From Candidatus Elulimicrobium sp. (lineage in GTDB: Bacteria; Patescibacteriota; Minisyncoccia; Phycocordibacterales; UBA918): a stretch of 64,000 nucleotides of DNA. The DNA is taken from positions 1,002 through 65,001 of the forward strand of contig DYNY01000003.1 in NCBI GenBank assembly GCA_020720815.1. Reading direction: 5' to 3'. A program made the position numbers and the translations under genes. The notes beneath the pieces are model-generated. The model saw only the letters and a program-made list of their open reading frames with translations, did not search any database and was not told the DNA's origin. Below, one piece after another: positions 3,449-18,722 of this stretch; positions within the stretch are counted from its first letter, which is position 1, and each line of letters opens with the position of its first letter.

Positions 3449-5062
3449 TTATGAGTTCATAAGTGGAAAGAGGTAAGCATACCCTTCTTTTTCCATATTA
3501 CTTTGTGAAATAAAACGGAGTGATGCAGAATTCATACAATATCGCTTACCACCCCTATCTGCTGGCCCATCATCGAACACATGCCCGAGATGTGAGTCAG
3601 CAAAGCGCGATCGGACTTCAGTTCGCTTTGTAAAGAGTGTACTGTCTTTGTGTAGCACAACTGCGTCATCCGTAATCGGTTTTACAAATGACGGCCACCC
3701 GGTGCCAGAGTCATATTTATCCTTTGAGAAATACAACGGTTCCCCCGATACAATGTCTACATAGATTCCCTCAACATCATTCTTATCATACTCGTTCTTA
3801 AATGGCGTTTCGGTTCCATCCTCTTGTGTCACCTCATACTGAATTGATGTGAGGCGAGCACGAAGAACTTCAGGGGAAGGCTTCATAAAACTTTGCCAAG
3901 AGTTTTCTTTGGAAGTTATAGTACTTGATCCTGGTTCAGTCCATATACTCGGAGTAACAAACGTATTTGCGGAATCGCCCCAATATTTTTTAATAAATGT
4001 ATCTCTTCCTGAGGCAGTGCGATATAAGTTGTACCGAACTGGATTCTTCTCAGAATAATCTTGATGATATTCTTCAGCTGCCCAAAATGGTACTCGCGGA
4101 GTGACCAGAAGCGGCAATGGATTAGGAAATGTACGAAGTGCATCAACCGTGTCAATGATCCGACGTGCTTCAATCTTTTCGATATCATTTTCGTAGAATA
4201 TTGCTGGTGCATATTCTTTTCCTCGATCACCGAAGGATCCTTCCGCGTCCGTTGGGTCACCGTGTTTAATGATATGTTCGACGAGGTTCCCAAATGTTAG
4301 GGTATTTGCATCATATGTTACCAACACTACTTCACGATGACCACCTTCCTCATAATTCTTATAGGTAGGATTCTCGGTAGACCCGCCCGCGTATCCCGAC
4401 ACTACATCAATAACCCCTGTAACTTCTTCAAGATCATGCTCCACGCACCAGAAACATCCGTTTGCAAGTAGAGCAGTCTTTTTCGACATCTCGTAATTTT
4501 GTTGTCCTGTGGTGGTGCTAGGAATTGGTATTTCGGCGGACTTGCTCATGTCATCACCGTCTTGCATAGAATCTTCAACACTCAATTCGTTTGAAGTTAA
4601 TCCACTAATACTAATGTCCGCGTAGTTAAACAAAACACCAAACTGTTTACACCACGTCATCACGTATTTATAATCAGAAATATCTACCTCTGCAGGAATA
4701 ATGTAGTTGATATTACCCTCTGTGCCACGTAGCTCCCCAAGACTCACAAACTCCTTACCTTCAAGATCTTTGCTTAAATATACAAATAAATCTGGGCCAT
4801 TGATTGTCTTGAAATTTTCATAACAAATAGTTTTTCCTTCCGGAGAATCAATGAGTCTTACGGTTCCTTCAGCTGGATGCCCAACTGTACCCATAACAGG
4901 ATAGCTCTCAACAATCATGACCTCGTCTTTACTACTAGAAACACTTAGCATTACTGGGGCTTCTTCGTTAAGTGTAACTGTTTTAAAGGTTGGAGAGATG
5001 GTGTAATAACCAAAACCGATGAGCACCGTGGCGACGACTGCAATAATTATTTTATTTAACAT
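3449..5062 (-). CDS. msrAB: Membrane-anchored/secreted DM13-MsrA-MsrB fusion (peptide methionine sulfoxide reductase A/B)
   Basis: N-terminal TM helix. DM13-like segment (…[37 protein letters not shown]…). MsrA motif GCFWCVEH…YAGG…NPTY. MsrB motifs (…GWPSF…HLGHVF…, CxxC pairs). Confidence 0.8.
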
Positions 5063-7803: not shown

Positions 7804-8105
7804 TGTGCTACGGGCAGTGAAAGTGTGCTAGAAAATTGTGTCAGCCATCATTTCCATATAAGTCACTTTTTAATTTTACCTAGTGGAACCAGAAGTCCTT
7901 ATTTAGATTTCTTTCTTGCAGGGTAGAGACAGTGGGGCGGCTATCGGGAATATCTTTCATTACATGAACGGTACACCTTTCGTATCGTACTTCGCTAGCG
8001 CTCGTGCGATACACTCAAGGTCTTCGATTCCCGAGCGGAAGCAAAGCAGTTTGCTTCCTTAGCCGCCCAAAACACAAAAGACCCTAAAGGGGTCCTTGTG
8101 TTTTG

Positions 8106-8178
8106 GGCGGCTATCGGGAATCGAACCCGAATCGAAGGCTCCACAAACCTCAGTGTTAACCGTTACACCATAGCCGCC
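8106..8178 (-). tRNA. tRNA-His (anticodon GTG) with an encoded G-1
   Basis: Manual cloverleaf fold. Acceptor GCGGCTA/TAGCCGC, D-stem GTGT/ACAC with a GG loop, anticodon stem GAGGT/GCCTT with loop TTGTGGA giving GUG, T-arm TCGGG-TTCGATT-CCCGA, discriminator C. The extra 5' G pairs with C73, a tRNA-His hallmark. Confidence 0.75.
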
Positions 8179-15458: not shown

Positions 15459-16253
15459 ATGGAAACAACCTTTTTTAGTAACAAGAATAATCGATTGCTG
15501 GGGGCATTAGCTTTGCTAATGTTTATTATCGCCTTAGGTGCTTATACCCAATATACTTTTAAGCAGTCAGAGTATCTATATTCAGGACCAACAACTATTT
15601 CTGTTATTGGTGAGGGCGAAGTCAGTGCTATTCCAGATATTGGCAAGTTTAGTTTTTCGGTTATGGCAGAAGGTGTTGACGCAATAAAAGCACGTGAAGT
15701 GTCAAATACCAAAACAAATGATGTCCTCGCTTTCCTAAAAGAAAAGGGAGTGGAAGAAAAAGATATTAAAACTGAGTCCTACAGTCTTTATCCAAAGTAT
15801 AAATATGAGCAAAGGCCTTGCCCAGTTGGTTCATATTGTCCTGGTGATCAAGTCCAAGATGGATTTGAGGTAATGCAGACTATTTCCGTTAAGGTGCGCA
15901 ATATTGATTTGGCTGGGGATCTAGTTGCTGGAGTAGGCGATAAGGGAGCGACTAACCTCAGTGGTTTAGAATTTACGATTGATGATACGAGTGTACTAAA
16001 AGAGGAAGCCAGAAAAGAAGCGATTGCCGATGCCAAAGCTAAGGCTGAGGTATTAGCTAAGGAGCTAAATGTAAGACTTGAAAGGATGGTTGGTTACTAT
16101 GAAGATGAGAATGGTGGACCGGTGCCATATTATGGTATGGGAGAGGATATGATGGTAAAAACAGCTATGGAGACAGCTCCGGCGTCACCAGACCTACCAG
16201 TCGGAGAGAATGTGACTAAAAGTAGAGTAACAATTACTTACCAAATAAAATAG
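15459..16253 (+). CDS. SIMPL-domain (DUF541/YggE-like) periplasmic protein
   Basis: …ISVIGEGEVSAIPDIGKFSFSV… and …FEVMQTISVKVRNIDLAGDLVAGVGDKGATNLSGLEFTIDDTSVLKEEARKEAIADAKAKAEVLAKELN… align with E. coli YggE. Confidence 0.75.
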   Translation: METTFFSNKNNRLLGALALLMFIIALGAYTQYTFKQSEYLYSGPTTISVIGEGEVSAIPDIGKFSFSVMAEGVDAIKAREVSNTKTNDVLAFLKEKGVEEKDIKTESYSLYPKYKYEQRPCPVGSYCPGDQVQDGFEVMQTISVKVRNIDLAGDLVAGVGDKGATNLSGLEFTIDDTSVLKEEARKEAIADAKAKAEVLAKELNVRLERMVGYYEDENGGPVPYYGMGEDMMVKTAMETAPASPDLPVGENVTKSRVTITYQIK

Positions 16254-17137: not shown

Positions 17138-17260
17138 AAGATTCTAATTTTGCATATTGGCTTTGTTGGTCGTCAGAAAATTTTGTTCAATGTACGATAA
17201 AGTACACCTCACAAATTTTCTTTAACCGTCTCGCCATTGCATCAAAACTAAACCTTTTAG

Positions 17261-17287
17261 AAAAAAGCCCCTCGGGGCTTTTTTCTT
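17261..17287 (+). terminator. Rho-independent terminator after nusG
   Basis: aaaaaagcccctcggggctttttt. Confidence 0.7.
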
Positions 17288-17297
17288 GTTTTCCAAG

Positions 17298-17368
17298 CCC
17301 AGCCCCCCAGCTATTTGCGGAGGGCGAATATTGGGGTGGTGGGCGGAGCAAATAGCTGGGGGACTGGG
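17298..17368 (+). promoter_or_regulatory. GC-rich ~20-bp-stem hairpin with a G-rich 30-nt loop in the rplK leader
   Basis: cccagccccccagctatttgc … gcaaatagctgggggactggg is a near-perfect inverted repeat. The loop is ggagggcgaatattggggtggtgggcgga. Confidence 0.4.
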
Positions 17369-17494
17369 CGTAGGGGAATAAGACAGGCCTATTTCTATTG
17401 CAAAATAACCCTTTTTCTTGTAGGATACGCAAGCTTCTAAGTAGGAATCTGTAATGGAACAGGGACTGAAAATAATTTAAATTTAATCAACCAC

Positions 17495-17917
17495 ATGGCA
17501 AAAAAATTAGTAAAGAAAATCAAAGTTCAAGCCACAGGTGGAAAAGCTACACCAGCTCCACCTTTAGGACCAGTACTAGGACAAGCCGGTATTAATATCG
17601 GTGAGTTCGTTAATCAATTTAACGAACAAACACGTGACCGTATGGGTCAGGTAGTACCGGTAGAACTTTCGGTTTACGATGATCGTACTTTTACTTTCAT
17701 TACCAAAGTATCACCAATGTCTCGTCTTATTCTAAAGGCACTCGGTAAAGACAAGGGTTCAAGTAAGAATGCTGTATCAAAAGTCGGTACCCTTACACAG
17801 GCTCAAGTCAAAGCCATTGCTGAAGAAAAGATGGCTGATCTCAACGCTGCTTCACTCGAAGCTGCGATGAAAACAGTGGCCGGTACTGCGCGCTCAATGG
17901 GCGTAAACGTGGAATAA
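17495..17917 (+). CDS. rplK: 50S ribosomal protein L11
   Basis: …QATGGKATPAPPLGPVLGQAGINIGEFVNQFN…, the canonical L11 N-terminal domain. Confidence 0.95.
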   Translation: MAKKLVKKIKVQATGGKATPAPPLGPVLGQAGINIGEFVNQFNEQTRDRMGQVVPVELSVYDDRTFTFITKVSPMSRLILKALGKDKGSSKNAVSKVGTLTQAQVKAIAEEKMADLNAASLEAAMKTVAGTARSMGVNVE

Positions 17918-18113
17918 ATCCACGTTTACGAAGCTTTTGAGCTCTTTTATGAGCGATAGCGATGTAAAAGAGCCAAAAGGTATACAGTTTCTGTTAAGAA
18001 ATAAACGTGGAATAAATCCACGTTTACGAAGCTTTTGAGCTCTTTTATGAGCGATAGCGATGTAAAAGAGCCAAAAGGTATACAGTTTCTGTTAAGAAAT
18101 AAACGTGGAATAA
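17904..18113. repeat. Tandem direct repeat, 98-bp unit x ~2.1 copies, beginning inside the rplK stop region
   Basis: 17904-18001 is repeated exactly at 18002-18099, with a 14-nt partial third copy. Each unit holds two hairpins (acgtgga…tccacgt and gctctttta…taaaagagc). Confidence 0.9.
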
Positions 18114-18200
18114 TAGACAAAATCAAGTAAAAAACCAGCGGTCTCTTAGAGACCGCTGGTTTTTTGGTATTATAAAACTTACTTAAACATTAAGAAAACA

Positions 18201-18722
18201 TTAAGAATTTCGTCTTTTATAATCAACCCATTGAAATTCAAAGTTGCCACTTTGTACTGGTATGTGCTCTTTGGTAGGAACAAAATCATTTTCATATTCT
18301 GGGAAGAAAGAATCAGCTAATGGTTCGCTATCGACAATGGTTAGGTGTAAGCGATCAACATACGGCATGGTTGTTGCGTAAAGTTCGGCTCCACCGCCAA
18401 TGTGTATCTCTTTGGGATTTCCTCTCTCTGCAATAGCAAAGGCAGCCTCTAGTGAACCGGCGGTAATAGCGCCCGGGACTTTGTAGTCAGGGTTACGGGT
18501 GACAATGATATTGGTCCTACCTGGTAGTGGCTTGCCCAGCATAGCGACGATAGATTCAAAGGTCTTTCGCCCCATAATAATAGGATGACCAAGGGTCAGC
18601 TCCTTAAATCGCTTTAAGTCCGCTGGAATATGCCAGAGAAGCTTATTTTTATAACCAATAGCTCGTTTCTTTCGGCTCATCGCCGCCACGATTACGATCG
18701 GTGTGGTTGGAAAGTGCATCAT
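18201..18722 (-). CDS. folA: Dihydrofolate reductase
   Basis: …PIVIVAAMSRKKRAIGYKNKLLWHIPADLKRFKELTLGHPIIMGRKTFES… gives the DHFR fold motifs. The start is chosen at MMHF…, whereas the track ORF starts 6 codons upstream. Confidence 0.85.
   Translation of the reverse strand: MMHFPTTPIVIVAAMSRKKRAIGYKNKLLWHIPADLKRFKELTLGHPIIMGRKTFESIVAMLGKPLPGRTNIIVTRNPDYKVPGAITAGSLEAAFAIAERGNPKEIHIGGGAELYATTMPYVDRLHLTIVDSEPLADSFFPEYENDFVPTKEHIPVQSGNFEFQWVDYKRRNS

What the first reader, a model, noticed from the sequence alone, without database searches (positions are those of the whole stretch)
17904..18113. 98-bp tandem duplication that begins inside the rplK stop codon region
The sequence 17904-18001 is repeated exactly at 18002-18099, followed by a 14-nt third start. 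The unit begins with the last 14 nt of rplK (…aaacgtggaataa, TAA stop included). It holds two hairpins, acgtgga-ataaa-tccacgt and gctctttta-N14-taaaagagc.

The perfect identity implies a very recent duplication, or possibly an assembly repeat artefact. Downstream, where rplA would normally follow, is an unrelated convergent gene (folA). The duplicated module could be a terminator/attenuator or an sRNA unit.
Basis: seen in the sequence. Interest (0 to 1): 0.5.

Follow-up and report, generated by a model that had tools for sequence, protein, structure and literature searches.

The report
Duplicated structured repeat module after rplK
The perfect 98-base tandem repeat is a real, very recent duplication of one unit of a hairpin-rich module absent from Rfam, which many Paceibacteria (candidate-phyla-radiation bacteria) carry in one to three copies between the stop codon of the ribosomal protein L11 gene and its terminator.

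Summary
In detail: 17904-18113 is a 98-nt unit in 2.1 copies at 100% identity, and it starts with the last 14 nt of rplK. It is not an assembly artefact. Two k=31 contigs from read set SRR1560848 stop exactly 30 nt inside the repeat on each side. That requires the unit-to-unit junction to exist in reads.

The unit is not lineage-specific junk. It consists of a hairpin with the rplK stop codon in its loop, plus a 72-nt core (long hairpin P2, conserved junction GUAUACAG, short hairpin P3 with CUGUAAG). This module follows rplK in 56 of 138 related Paceibacteria loci, in 1, 2 or 3 copies. All 20 core base pairs show compensatory changes. It matches no Rfam 15 family.

A third copy lies after tRNA-His (7955-8023, minus strand). 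It is followed by an exact 17-nt copy of the tRNA 3' end.

Each module after rplK is followed by a copy of the last L11 codons plus stop. These copies differ from the gene end mainly at third codon positions.

The window caught an array expanding by slippage or unequal crossover between 14-nt repeats. The function of the module is unknown. My best guess is a cis-acting 3'-UTR structural element that behaves like an insertion-prone repeat.

The parts
17495..17917 (+). rplK (ribosomal protein L11, 140 aa). Its last 12 nt plus the preceding base form the 5' arm of hairpin HP1. The stop TAA is at 17915-17917.
   Evidence: ORF list. Pfam Ribosomal_L11_N and Ribosomal_L11 on the identical protein in L001-L003.
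17902..17930 (+). HP1: 12-bp hairpin CGTAAACGTGGA / TCCACGTTTACG with loop ATAAA. The stop codon lies in the loop.
   Evidence: the repeat finder I16. MFE fold. The 3' arm compensates for lineage-specific changes in the L11 codons across 49 units.
17904..18001 (+). Repeat unit 1 (98 nt), made of a hairpin repeat (HP) plus the core.
   Evidence: TRF. CM R1 hit 17903-18000 at 88.9 bits.
17930..18001 (+). Core of module 1: J1 (G)AAG, P2 17934-17979 (bulged A17940, 15-nt tip), J2 GTATACAG 17980-17987, P3 17988-18001 (TTTCT-GTTA-AGAAA).
   Evidence: CM R2 hit at 71.7 bits, E = 1.6e-15. Covariation.
18002..18099 (+). Repeat unit 2, identical to unit 1. HP2 has a 10-bp stem (18002-18011 with 18017-18026). 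The core is 18028-18099.
18100..18113 (+). Terminal partial unit TAAACGTGGAATAA. With the preceding A it reads ATA AAC GTG GAA TAA (INVE*). It has no complementary 3' arm.
18129..18165 (.). Bidirectional intrinsic terminator shared by rplK plus the array and the convergent folA. Perfect 18-nt arms with an A-run and a T-run.
   Evidence: the repeat finder I4. Terminator scan.
18201..18722 (-). folA (dihydrofolate reductase), convergent with rplK.
   Evidence: Exact protein found on Logan contig L164 with PF00186.
7955..8023 (-). Third module core of the same family, downstream of tRNA-His.
   Evidence: CM R2 at 44.2 bits, E = 1.5e-8. Still the only other hit with filters off.
7935..7951 (-). 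ATTCCCGATAGCCGCCC: an exact 17-nt copy of the 3' end of tRNA-His (8121-8105), placed 4 nt after the third module.
   Evidence: Sequence. Direct-repeat test: score 17, 0 of 60 shuffles reach it.
8027..8068 (-). GGGCGGCTA (8068-8060) and TCGGGAAT (8034-8027): complements of that 17-nt repeat, split by a small hairpin. They can close the third module with a 17-bp helix.
   Evidence: Sequence read directly.
8105..8177 (-). tRNA-His (GTG).
   Evidence: ARAGORN and Rfam.

Best explanation
The 98-bp repeat is a genuine, very recent expansion from one to two units of a small array of structured modules. The array lies in the 3' untranslated region of rplK, between the stop codon and the intrinsic terminator.

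One unit consists of a hairpin (HP) plus a 72-nt core.
- The 5' arm of HP is the last L11 codons, and its loop holds the stop codon.
- The core has a long hairpin P2 with a variable tip, a conserved single-stranded junction (G/U)(G/A/U)(A/U)AC(A/U)G, and a 5-bp hairpin P3 with CUGUAAG.

The module family is conserved with compensatory base-pair changes across Paceibacteria (Kaiserbacteria, Nomurabacteria and relatives). It occurs in 0-3 tandem copies after rplK and at a few other places, including after tRNA-His in this window. It is in no Rfam family.

Because every unit starts with a near-copy of the rplK end, the array carries short direct repeats (14 nt here). Replication slippage or unequal crossover between them turned A-B-A into A-B-A-B-A. 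That step is inferred from the anatomy.

The same expansion and contraction dynamics would explain two further things. Module number differs among close relatives, and the downstream copies keep L11-like codons and a stop. Any of them can become, or has recently been, the real gene end.

What the module does is not shown. My most likely reading is a cis-acting structural element of the transcript 3' end. It would be co-transcribed with rplK, with HP1 melted by the terminating ribosome, and would affect mRNA 3'-end stability or processing. It also behaves like an insertion-prone intergenic repeat of the REP/BOX/MIRU kind.
For: - Repeat.
- Real junction: Logan SRR1560848 contigs L003 and L164 end exactly 30 nt (k-1) inside the repeat on the two sides. 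A 14-nt repeat alone cannot break a k=31 graph.
- Single-copy relative with an identical L11 protein: L001 has HP-core-HP, then a terminator.
- Family: the module follows rplK in 56 of 138 distinct loci (44 with one, 5 with two, 7 with three).
- Covariation: RNAalifold finds 20 of 20 pairs with double changes. On 56 cores, 86% of cells pair against 66% in shuffles (0 of 500 shuffles reach it) and 39-54% when slid. On 84 CM-aligned modules, 89.7% against 67%.
- In-situ compensation: where the rplK end and its downstream copy differ, the 3' arm of HP1 pairs with the rplK end only in 39 cases and with the copy only in 1.
- Codon-like copies: differences in codons 2-4 fall 20/15/69 at positions 1/2/3, and the stop is kept in 46 of 59.
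- Other sites: tRNA-His with a 17-nt duplicated tRNA end, after a SIMPL-domain gene, and intergenic on either strand.
- Presence/absence: in L086 a module sits inside the nusG-rplK leader hairpin, which is intact in L001 and in the window.
- No Rfam match.
Against: - Function is not shown by any data here.
- G.U pairs are not clearly commoner than A.C (about 36 against 24-57, depending on which systematically mismatched columns are excluded). Selection on RNA of this strand, rather than on DNA hairpins, is therefore not demonstrated.
- The third-position bias of the downstream copies (66%) exceeds what neutral decay of a non-coding copy predicts (at most about 50%; p = 5.5e-4). Simple duplication followed by drift is therefore not the whole story.
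- The exact copy number in the organism (2 or more) cannot be read from short-read graphs.
- The loci were chosen through rplK, so the apparent preference for rplK is biased.
Confidence: 0.72

Rival explanations
1. Assembly artefact: the genome has one unit and the assembler walked a graph loop twice.
For: The identity is perfect. The 210-bp repeat exceeds typical short-read length. All three contigs carrying the identical L11 end soon after rplK.
Against: The k=31 contigs from SRR1560848 end exactly 30 nt into the repeat on both flanks. That happens only if reads contain the unit-unit junction. With one unit the only repeated stretch is 14 nt, shorter than k-1. Relatives carry diverged 2- and 3-unit arrays that cannot be artefacts.
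Confidence: 0.04
2. A host regulatory RNA specific to L11. The module would bind L11 (or another stalk protein) or sense the terminating ribosome, giving rplK an autoregulatory element in clades that lost L1, the usual regulator of the L11 operon.
For: The module sits at rplK in 41% of loci. HP1 is maintained by compensatory change against the coding arm. The junction and loop nucleotides are conserved. This clade lacks L1. From memory, the P3 loop (C-UGUAA-G) and the GAAG in the P2 tip loosely recall H44 and H43 of the 23S GTPase-associated centre. That resemblance was not tested.
Against: Modules also follow tRNA-His and a SIMPL-domain gene, and lie intergenic on either strand. Occurrence is patchy even among L11 proteins at least 95% identical (5 with, 4 without). 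The P2 tip, which would correspond to the L11-contacting H43 loop, is the most variable part. Only the local hairpins are preserved, so there is no evidence for a switch.
Confidence: 0.12
3. A mobile structured element: a MITE-like DNA repeat, or an RNA-mediated or ribozyme-bearing element that inserts at gene 3' ends and duplicates the target. Its structure would be kept for its own propagation rather than for the host.
For: - Presence/absence inside another conserved element (L086 against L001 and the window).
- Flanking direct repeats of 7-26 nt.
- Nested modules in L084, L104 and L133.
- Both orientations in intergenic DNA.
- Patchy distribution.
- No G.U excess.
- From general knowledge, tandem arrays of diverged small structured RNAs are typical of bacterial self-cleaving ribozymes.
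Against: - Only 3 copies occur in 64 kb, and about 1 per 50 kb outside the rplK site.
- There are no terminal inverted repeats.
- No transposase or reverse transcriptase was linked (not searched systematically).
- The module is not found in viral contigs.
- Cores at the orthologous rplK site diverge in step with L11, and the HP 3' arm compensates in situ. That indicates long vertical residence under local selection.
- No known ribozyme model matches.
Confidence: 0.2
4. The unit encodes a small protein: ATG at 17949 and 18047, MSDSDVKEPKGIQFLLRNKRGIIDKIK from copy 2.
For: L001 keeps the frame, and its three differences fall on third codon positions.
Against: The ATG lies in the variable tip of P2 and is absent in close relatives (L005 ACAAGCG, L091 GCTAGCG, L104 AAAGCT). 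Variation elsewhere follows base pairing, not codons. There is no ribosome-binding site.
Confidence: 0.02
5. The module hairpins are the rplK terminator or attenuator.
For: Stable hairpins sit directly after the stop codon.
Against: None of the three hairpins is followed by a U-tract. A canonical terminator follows the array at 18129-18165, as it does in nearly all related loci with or without modules.
Confidence: 0.05

Closest known systems
REP/BIME elements of enterobacteria and pseudomonads (repetitive extragenic palindromes)
   Same: Hairpin-forming repeats sit between a stop codon and the terminator. They are co-transcribed in 3' UTRs, clustered in variable numbers, and differ between close strains. 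By general knowledge, REPs within about 15 nt of a stop codon affect termination and mRNA decay.
   Different: - The unit here is about 95 nt with three distinct hairpins and conserved unpaired junctions, not a single 20-40-nt palindrome.
- There is no GTAG-type 5' motif.
- Copy number per genome appears low.
- The first hairpin overlaps coding sequence.
- The module is conserved across a class-level clade.
- No RAYT link was examined.
MIRU-VNTR loci of mycobacteria
   Same: Tandem repeats of 40-100 bp lie in intergenic DNA. The repeat overlaps the stop codon of the upstream gene, and copy number varies between strains through slippage.
   Different: MIRUs carry short in-frame ORFs linking the flanking genes. 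They are not defined by a conserved covarying secondary structure. Here the units are out of frame (98 nt) and full of stops.
BOX elements of Streptococcus pneumoniae
   Same: Modular intergenic repeats with a variable number of internal modules. They form stable RNA structures and lie near gene ends.
   Different: The sequence and architecture are unrelated. BOX elements number over a hundred copies per genome. They show no overlap with coding ends and no duplication of the host gene end.
Candidate structured RNA motifs and tandem arrays of small self-cleaving ribozymes (hammerhead, twister, hatchet, pistol)
   Same: The size is 70-100 nt. Conserved junction nucleotides sit between covarying helices with a variable-length distal stem. 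Different variants occur side by side in short tandem arrays.
   Different: No Rfam model matches, including all ribozyme families, even at E <= 10. The junction order does not fit the hammerhead core. No cleavage data exist.
Integration at tRNA gene 3' ends (attL/attR duplication of the tRNA end)
   Same: At tRNA-His the inserted segment is followed by an exact 17-nt copy of the tRNA 3' end.
   Different: The segment between the repeats is only about 150 nt and has no integrase. It also contains the complement of the repeat, so it can fold into a closed helix. At rplK the duplicated segment is the hairpin repeat of the array itself.

Membership tests
Any Rfam 15 family | Score at or above the family's gathering threshold | tested here: not met
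   No hit in the window apart from two tRNAs. At E <= 10 the only hits are far below threshold and driven by the terminator. Nothing was found in 15 related loci.
Intrinsic terminator | G+C-rich hairpin directly followed by a U-tract | tested here: not met
   The module hairpins are AT-rich with no T-run. The scan finds a terminator only at 18129-18165.
VNTR / MIRU-like tandem repeat | Head-to-tail units whose number differs among related genomes | tested here: met
   There are 2.1 units here, 1 in L001 with an identical L11 protein, and 0/1/2/3 units in 82/44/5/7 loci.
VNTR / MIRU-like tandem repeat | The unit carries an ORF in frame with the flanking genes | tested here: not met
   The unit is 98 nt, not a multiple of 3. 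Stops occur in all frames. The candidate ATG is not conserved.
REP/BIME | Short imperfect palindrome (20-40 nt) with a conserved 5' tetranucleotide, in many copies per genome | tested here: not met
   The unit has three different hairpins over about 95 nt. There are three copies in 64 kb and about 1 per 50 kb in the flanks.
REP/BIME | Association with a RAYT (IS200/IS605-type Y1 transposase) in the genome | not tested
   Whole genomes were not available to the tools. The window's proteins were not screened.
MITE | Terminal inverted repeats and a fixed-length target-site duplication | tested here: not met
   There are no terminal inverted repeats (the HP and P3 ends are unrelated). Flanking repeats vary from none to 26 nt.
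Conserved structured RNA (general criterion) | Compensatory base-pair changes beyond the controls | tested here: met
   20 of 20 pairs have double changes. Pairing is 86-90% against 66-67% in shuffles (0 of 500) and 39-54% when slid.
Conserved structured RNA (general criterion) | Strand-specific signature: G.U tolerated more than A.C | tested here: inconclusive
   G.U 36-37 against A.C 24-57, depending on the exclusion of type-specific mismatches. In the HP helix alone, 14 against 6.
Ribosomal-protein autoregulatory mimic of the 23S GTPase-associated centre | Conserved H43/H44-like loops that L11 contacts | not tested
   I made only a comparison by eye with the E. coli 1051-1108 sequence recalled from memory. 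The P2 tip is variable. No 23S sequence of this clade was at hand.
Programmed translational bypass (T4 gene 60 type) | Matched take-off and landing codons, a stop in a hairpin after take-off, and a reading frame that continues after landing | tested here: not met
   Matched codons and a stop in the hairpin are present. However, the landing copy is itself followed at once by a stop, so bypass would add nothing.
CRISPR array | Identical repeats separated by unique spacers | tested here: not met
   The sequences between the hairpin repeats are themselves the conserved, covarying part.

The most novel reading that the evidence does not exclude
The module is a new class of self-propagating structured RNA element. 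It could be ribozyme-like or retro-element-like, or a ribosome-coupled RNA device. It would install itself at the 3' ends of genes (rplK, a SIMPL-domain gene, tRNA-His) and regenerate the host gene's terminal codons and stop, or the tRNA 3' end, on its far side. Gain, loss and copy-number change would then never damage the host gene. The codon-preserving copies would be under direct selection, not just leftovers.
Probability: 0.15. Interest if true: 0.85.

Novelty: new variant of a known kind. Interest (0 to 1): 0.6.

Why it matters
CPR/Patescibacteria have tiny genomes and almost no described non-coding RNA biology. This is a well-supported, covarying, multi-copy structured module that is absent from Rfam. 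It is widespread in Paceibacteria and attached to the end of a universal ribosomal protein gene. The window shows it changing copy number essentially in real time.

Two features are unusual and testable:
- The first hairpin uses the last L11 codons as one arm and holds the stop codon in its loop. The non-coding arm tracks coding changes.
- Every downstream repeat keeps L11-like codons and a stop, with a third-position bias as strong as in real orthologous genes. At tRNA-His the same logic duplicates the tRNA 3' end.

This gives a concrete model for how repeat arrays can sit on a gene end without harming it. It also provides a ready covariance model for surveying CPR genomes and metatranscriptomes. 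If the function is only that of a tolerated repeat, the result is a modest addition to the list of bacterial intergenic repeats.

Tried and rejected
- **Small ORF inside the unit.** It looked attractive from the L001 comparison (3 of 3 differences at third positions). I rejected it because the ATG is not conserved and variation follows pairing.
- **Closing helix.** I considered the 3' arm of HP1 pairing with the downstream copy of the rplK end, making a three-way junction or a ribosome-driven switch. It is possible (84% of positions can pair), but where the two copies differ the arm follows the rplK end 39 to 1. At rplK the local hairpins are what is conserved. At tRNA-His, however, a 17-bp closing helix is the only sensible fold.
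- **Pairing constraint as the reason the copies resemble the gene end.** Rejected: identity is the same in stem (83.7%), loop (83.5%) and stop codon (87.6%).
- **Read-through or bypass translation of the copies.** Rejected on frame and on lack of any continuing ORF.
- **Rfam.** Scans at the gathering threshold and at E <= 10 found nothing.
- **Viral contigs.** A scan with AAGGTRTACWGNNNCTGTAAG gave two pattern hits, both weak by the model (15-18 bits).
- **Relatives of the tRNA-His locus.** Exact-protein look-ups of two neighbouring genes found nothing on record, so an empty-site comparison there was not possible.
- **tRNA scan.** tRNAs are not generally next to the other stand-alone modules.
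- **Literature.** Four searches for a described CPR motif, MITE or ribozyme of this kind found nothing relevant.
- **First G.U/A.C count.** It was distorted by register conflicts between module types and was redone on the model-based alignment.

Full report
**1. The observation**

Tandem Repeats Finder reports one array at 17904-18113: period 98, 2.1 copies, 100% matches, score 420. The repeat finder gives 17904-18001 = 18002-18099, and a third start TAAACGTGGAATAA at 18100-18113. A 38-nt piece of the unit is expected 0.00 times by chance.

rplK is 17495-17917, so the unit starts with its last 14 nt, TAA included. The layout is A-B-A-B-A, with A = 14 nt and B = 84 nt.

The unit holds three hairpins, not two:
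- HP has 12 bp in copy 1 (arms 17902-17913 and 17919-17930), with the stop codon in the 5-nt loop.
- P2 (17934-17979) consists of CTTTTG/CAAAAG plus GCTCTTTTA/TAAAAGAGC, with one bulged A and a 15-nt tip.
- P3 (17988-18001) is TTTCT-GTTA-AGAAA.

A perfect bidirectional terminator follows at 18129-18165, and then the convergent folA. The whole stretch folds far better than shuffles (z = -12.3).

**2. Real or artefact**

Three public contigs encode exactly this L11 protein.

L003 (Logan, SRR1560848, k = 31) ends at ...GCG|TAAACGTGGAATAAATCCACGTTTACGAAG, which is exactly 30 nt into the repeat. The contig from the same run that carries folA (L164) begins AGTTTCTGTTAAGAAATAAACGTGGAATAA|TAGACA. That is exactly 30 nt of repeat before unique sequence.

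Unitigs break k-1 bases into a repeat only if the graph branches there. With a single unit the only repeated stretch would be the 14-nt A, too short to branch a k=31 graph. So the junction between the end of one unit and the start of the next exists in those reads.

L002 (JGI 3300000234) has identical DNA and also ends inside the repeat. The duplication is therefore real. Whether the true number is two or more cannot be told from these graphs.

**3. What the unit is**

L001 has the same L11 protein but diverged DNA. It has one unit: HP, core, then a second complete hairpin (AAACGTCGA-ATAA-TCGACGTTT), then a terminator.

I fetched 160 loci around L11 relatives (70-99% identical) from metagenomes and GTDB genomes. 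All are Patescibacteria of the Paceibacteria group, including Kaiserbacteria and Nomurabacteria.

Printing the 150 nt after each rplK stop showed the same architecture in many of them:
- the complement of the last L11 codons directly after the stop;
- 3-4 nt (GAAG, AAGA or CGAC);
- a long hairpin whose base is CTTTTG/CAAAAG, GGTTGT/ACAACC, CCTTGC/GCAAGG or CTCATTG/CAATGAG;
- a junction such as GTATACAG, TGTACTG or TGAACAG;
- a 5-bp hairpin NNNCT-GTA-AGNNN;
- then again the last L11 codons with a stop.

An alignment of 49 units gave 20 predicted pairs, each with compensatory changes. On 56 cores, 86% of cells pair, against 66% in column shuffles (0 of 500 reach it) and 39-54% when partners are slid. 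On 84 model-aligned modules the figure is 89.7% against 67%. That alignment is fitted to the model, so it leans towards the structure.

No Rfam 15 family matches at the gathering threshold or at E <= 10. Four literature searches found no description.

**4. Distribution**

With the core model R2, 56 of 138 distinct loci with enough downstream sequence have modules right after rplK. Of these, 44 have one, 5 have two and 7 have three. Occurrence is patchy in every identity band.

Arrays mix module types. L035 is C-B-C and L124 is A-A-C. Some are nested (L084, L104, L133).

Seventeen hits lie elsewhere in the fetched flanks:
- directly after a SIMPL-domain gene, whose last codons and stop lie in the hairpin's 5' arm;
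- in the nusG-rplK spacer, on either strand;
- in other intergenic DNA.

In L086 a complete module (about 93 nt) sits inside a conserved leader hairpin between nusG and rplK. That hairpin is uninterrupted in L001 and in the window. This is a clean presence/absence difference.

In the 64-kb window, a search with filters off finds just three modules: the two after rplK and one at 7955-8023 on the minus strand (44 bits, E about 1e-8). The module was not found in viral contigs.

**5. The copy after tRNA-His**

On the minus strand the order is as follows:
- tRNA-His (8177-8105);
- a terminator-like hairpin;
- GGGCGGCTA;
- a small hairpin;
- TCGGGAAT;
- CGAAGA and the core;
- four bases later, ATTCCCGATAGCCGCCC (7951-7935).

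That last stretch is an exact 17-nt copy of the tRNA 3' end, and 0 of 60 shuffles reach its score. The two short blocks before the core are its complement. This module can therefore be closed by a 17-bp helix with the sequence of the tRNA-His acceptor and T stems.

At both sites in the window, then, the module is followed by a copy of the 3' end of the upstream gene.

**6. The copies of the gene end**

After each rplK-associated module I located the best ungapped match to the last 15 nt of rplK. Of 59 usable copies, 46 keep a stop codon in register.

In codons 2-4 the differences fall 20/15/69 on codon positions 1/2/3. That is 66% at the third position, with p = 6e-12 against one third and p = 5.5e-4 against one half. 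Real orthologous rplK ends show 59%.

Examples:
- L035: GTTGAAGTGAAGTAA / GTAGAAGTGAAATAG / ATAGAAGTAAAGTAA / GTCGAAGTGAAATAA (VEVK*, VEVK*, IEVK*, VEVK*).
- L152: AAAGTCGTAGACTAG against AAGGTTGTAGATTAA (both KVVD*).

Identity between the gene end and its copy is the same in the hairpin stem, the hairpin loop and the stop codon: 84%, 84% and 88%. Pairing therefore does not explain the resemblance.

Where the two differ inside the stem, the 3' arm of HP1 pairs with the gene end only in 39 cases, with both in 15, and with the copy only in 1. That count is somewhat biased, because the hairpin was defined on the gene end. The conserved structures at rplK are the local hairpins, and the non-coding arm of HP1 has followed changes in the L11 codons in situ.

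**7. How the duplication arose, and why the copies look coding (inference)**

In a one-unit array the 14-26 nt at the start of HP occur twice, about 98 nt apart. Slipped mispairing or unequal crossover between them gives exactly the window's structure.
- The middle A is followed by the 3' arm of HP1.
- The last A is followed by the old downstream sequence TAGACAAAATC.

The reciprocal event deletes the module and leaves a hybrid gene end. Some module-less relatives look like such products. L089 and L090 have the stop, then a partial complement, then the terminator.

By general knowledge, such events between short repeats are far more frequent than point mutations. If so, every copy is regularly re-derived from, or turned into, the true gene end. 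In very large populations that would keep the copies codon-compatible.

This accounts for the third-position bias better than neutral decay does, but it is an argument, not a measurement. Direct selection on the copies remains open as the novel reading.

**8. What the module does**

This is not shown.

In favour of a role in cis, on the transcript:
- HP1 is maintained by compensation against a coding arm.
- The junction and the P3 loop are conserved across a class-level clade.
- The position is fixed between the stop and the terminator, in one orientation, at rplK.

In favour of a selfish or merely tolerated repeat:
- patchiness among close relatives;
- insertion into another element;
- nesting;
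- both orientations elsewhere;
- flanking repeats;
- no clear excess of G.U over A.C (about 36 against 24-57).

I therefore describe it as a structured, array-forming intergenic module of the REP/BOX/MIRU kind. It has unusually strong structural conservation and an unusual relation to the gene end. My preferred working function is a 3'-UTR structural element affecting mRNA 3'-end stability or processing.

An L11-specific regulator and a ribozyme-like mobile element remain live rivals.

**9. The absent rplA**

No locus has rplA or rplJ after rplK. The downstream genes vary: CofE-like, CYTH, dCTP deaminase, or small unknown ORFs. L1 is known to be missing in a subgroup of Parcubacteria (bioRxiv 10.1101/2022.01.07.475337, citing Brown et al. 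2015).

**10. Verdict**

It is a recent expansion of an array of a conserved structured module family that is absent from Rfam. I found no description of it in the searched literature.

I rate the novelty as a new variant of a known kind (structured intergenic repeats, or candidate RNA motifs). Interest is 0.6. The most novel reading not excluded is a self-installing element that regenerates the host gene end, at about 0.15 probability.

Noticed in passing
window 17297-17369 (+), between nusG and rplK: A long hairpin (22-nt arms, 95% complementary) closes a G-rich loop, GCGGAGGGCGAATATTGGGGTGGTGGGCGGAGC. The loop is nearly identical in L001 and L086 while the stem differs with compensation. 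It is a candidate rplK leader element, and G-quadruplex-like. It follows the nusG terminator at 17259-17286 and has no Rfam match.
   Followed up: partly
L086 2765-2857: A complete module (hairpin plus core, about 93 nt) is inserted inside that leader hairpin, between GGGTGA and AGCAAAC. L001 and the window have the uninterrupted hairpin.
   Followed up: yes
window 7935-8121 (-): tRNA-His is followed by a terminator-like hairpin, then a module that can be closed by a 17-bp helix repeating the tRNA-His acceptor and T stems. The far strand is an exact 17-nt copy of the tRNA 3' end. The whole looks like a tRNA-His minihelix with the module in place of the T loop.
   Followed up: partly
L023, L042, L103, L104, L124, L068 and others, 100-450 nt after rplK: A second recurring motif, GTAAGA-N(8-40)-GTC(T/A)AAGG, lies just upstream of small (about 135-165 aa) unannotated ORFs that follow rplK in many loci. 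It has no Rfam match. It is not present after rplK in the window.
   Followed up: no
L066 about 2846-2930, L142 about 3745-3830, L020 about 2590-2640, L137, L069: In some modules P3 is interrupted after CTGTA by a further 50-80 nt containing CA(C/T)TCGC or CACTCACTCGG. This suggests a larger variant, or another element nested in the P3 loop.
   Followed up: no
L113 1819, L112 1929, L142 1174, L082 1868, L151 1679: A SIMPL-domain gene (the homologue of window 15459-16253) ends inside the module's hairpin. Its last codons and stop (..EVK*, ..EVR*) are the 5' arm, for example GTGAGATAG. The window's own SIMPL-domain gene has no module.
   Followed up: partly
window 18185-18207: A small perfect tandem repeat, AAACATTAAGA x 2.1, overlaps the folA stop codon region.
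   Followed up: no
window 17947-18126 (-): A 59-aa minus-strand ORF spans the repeat. It exists only because the unit is duplicated, and I regard it as spurious.
   Followed up: partly
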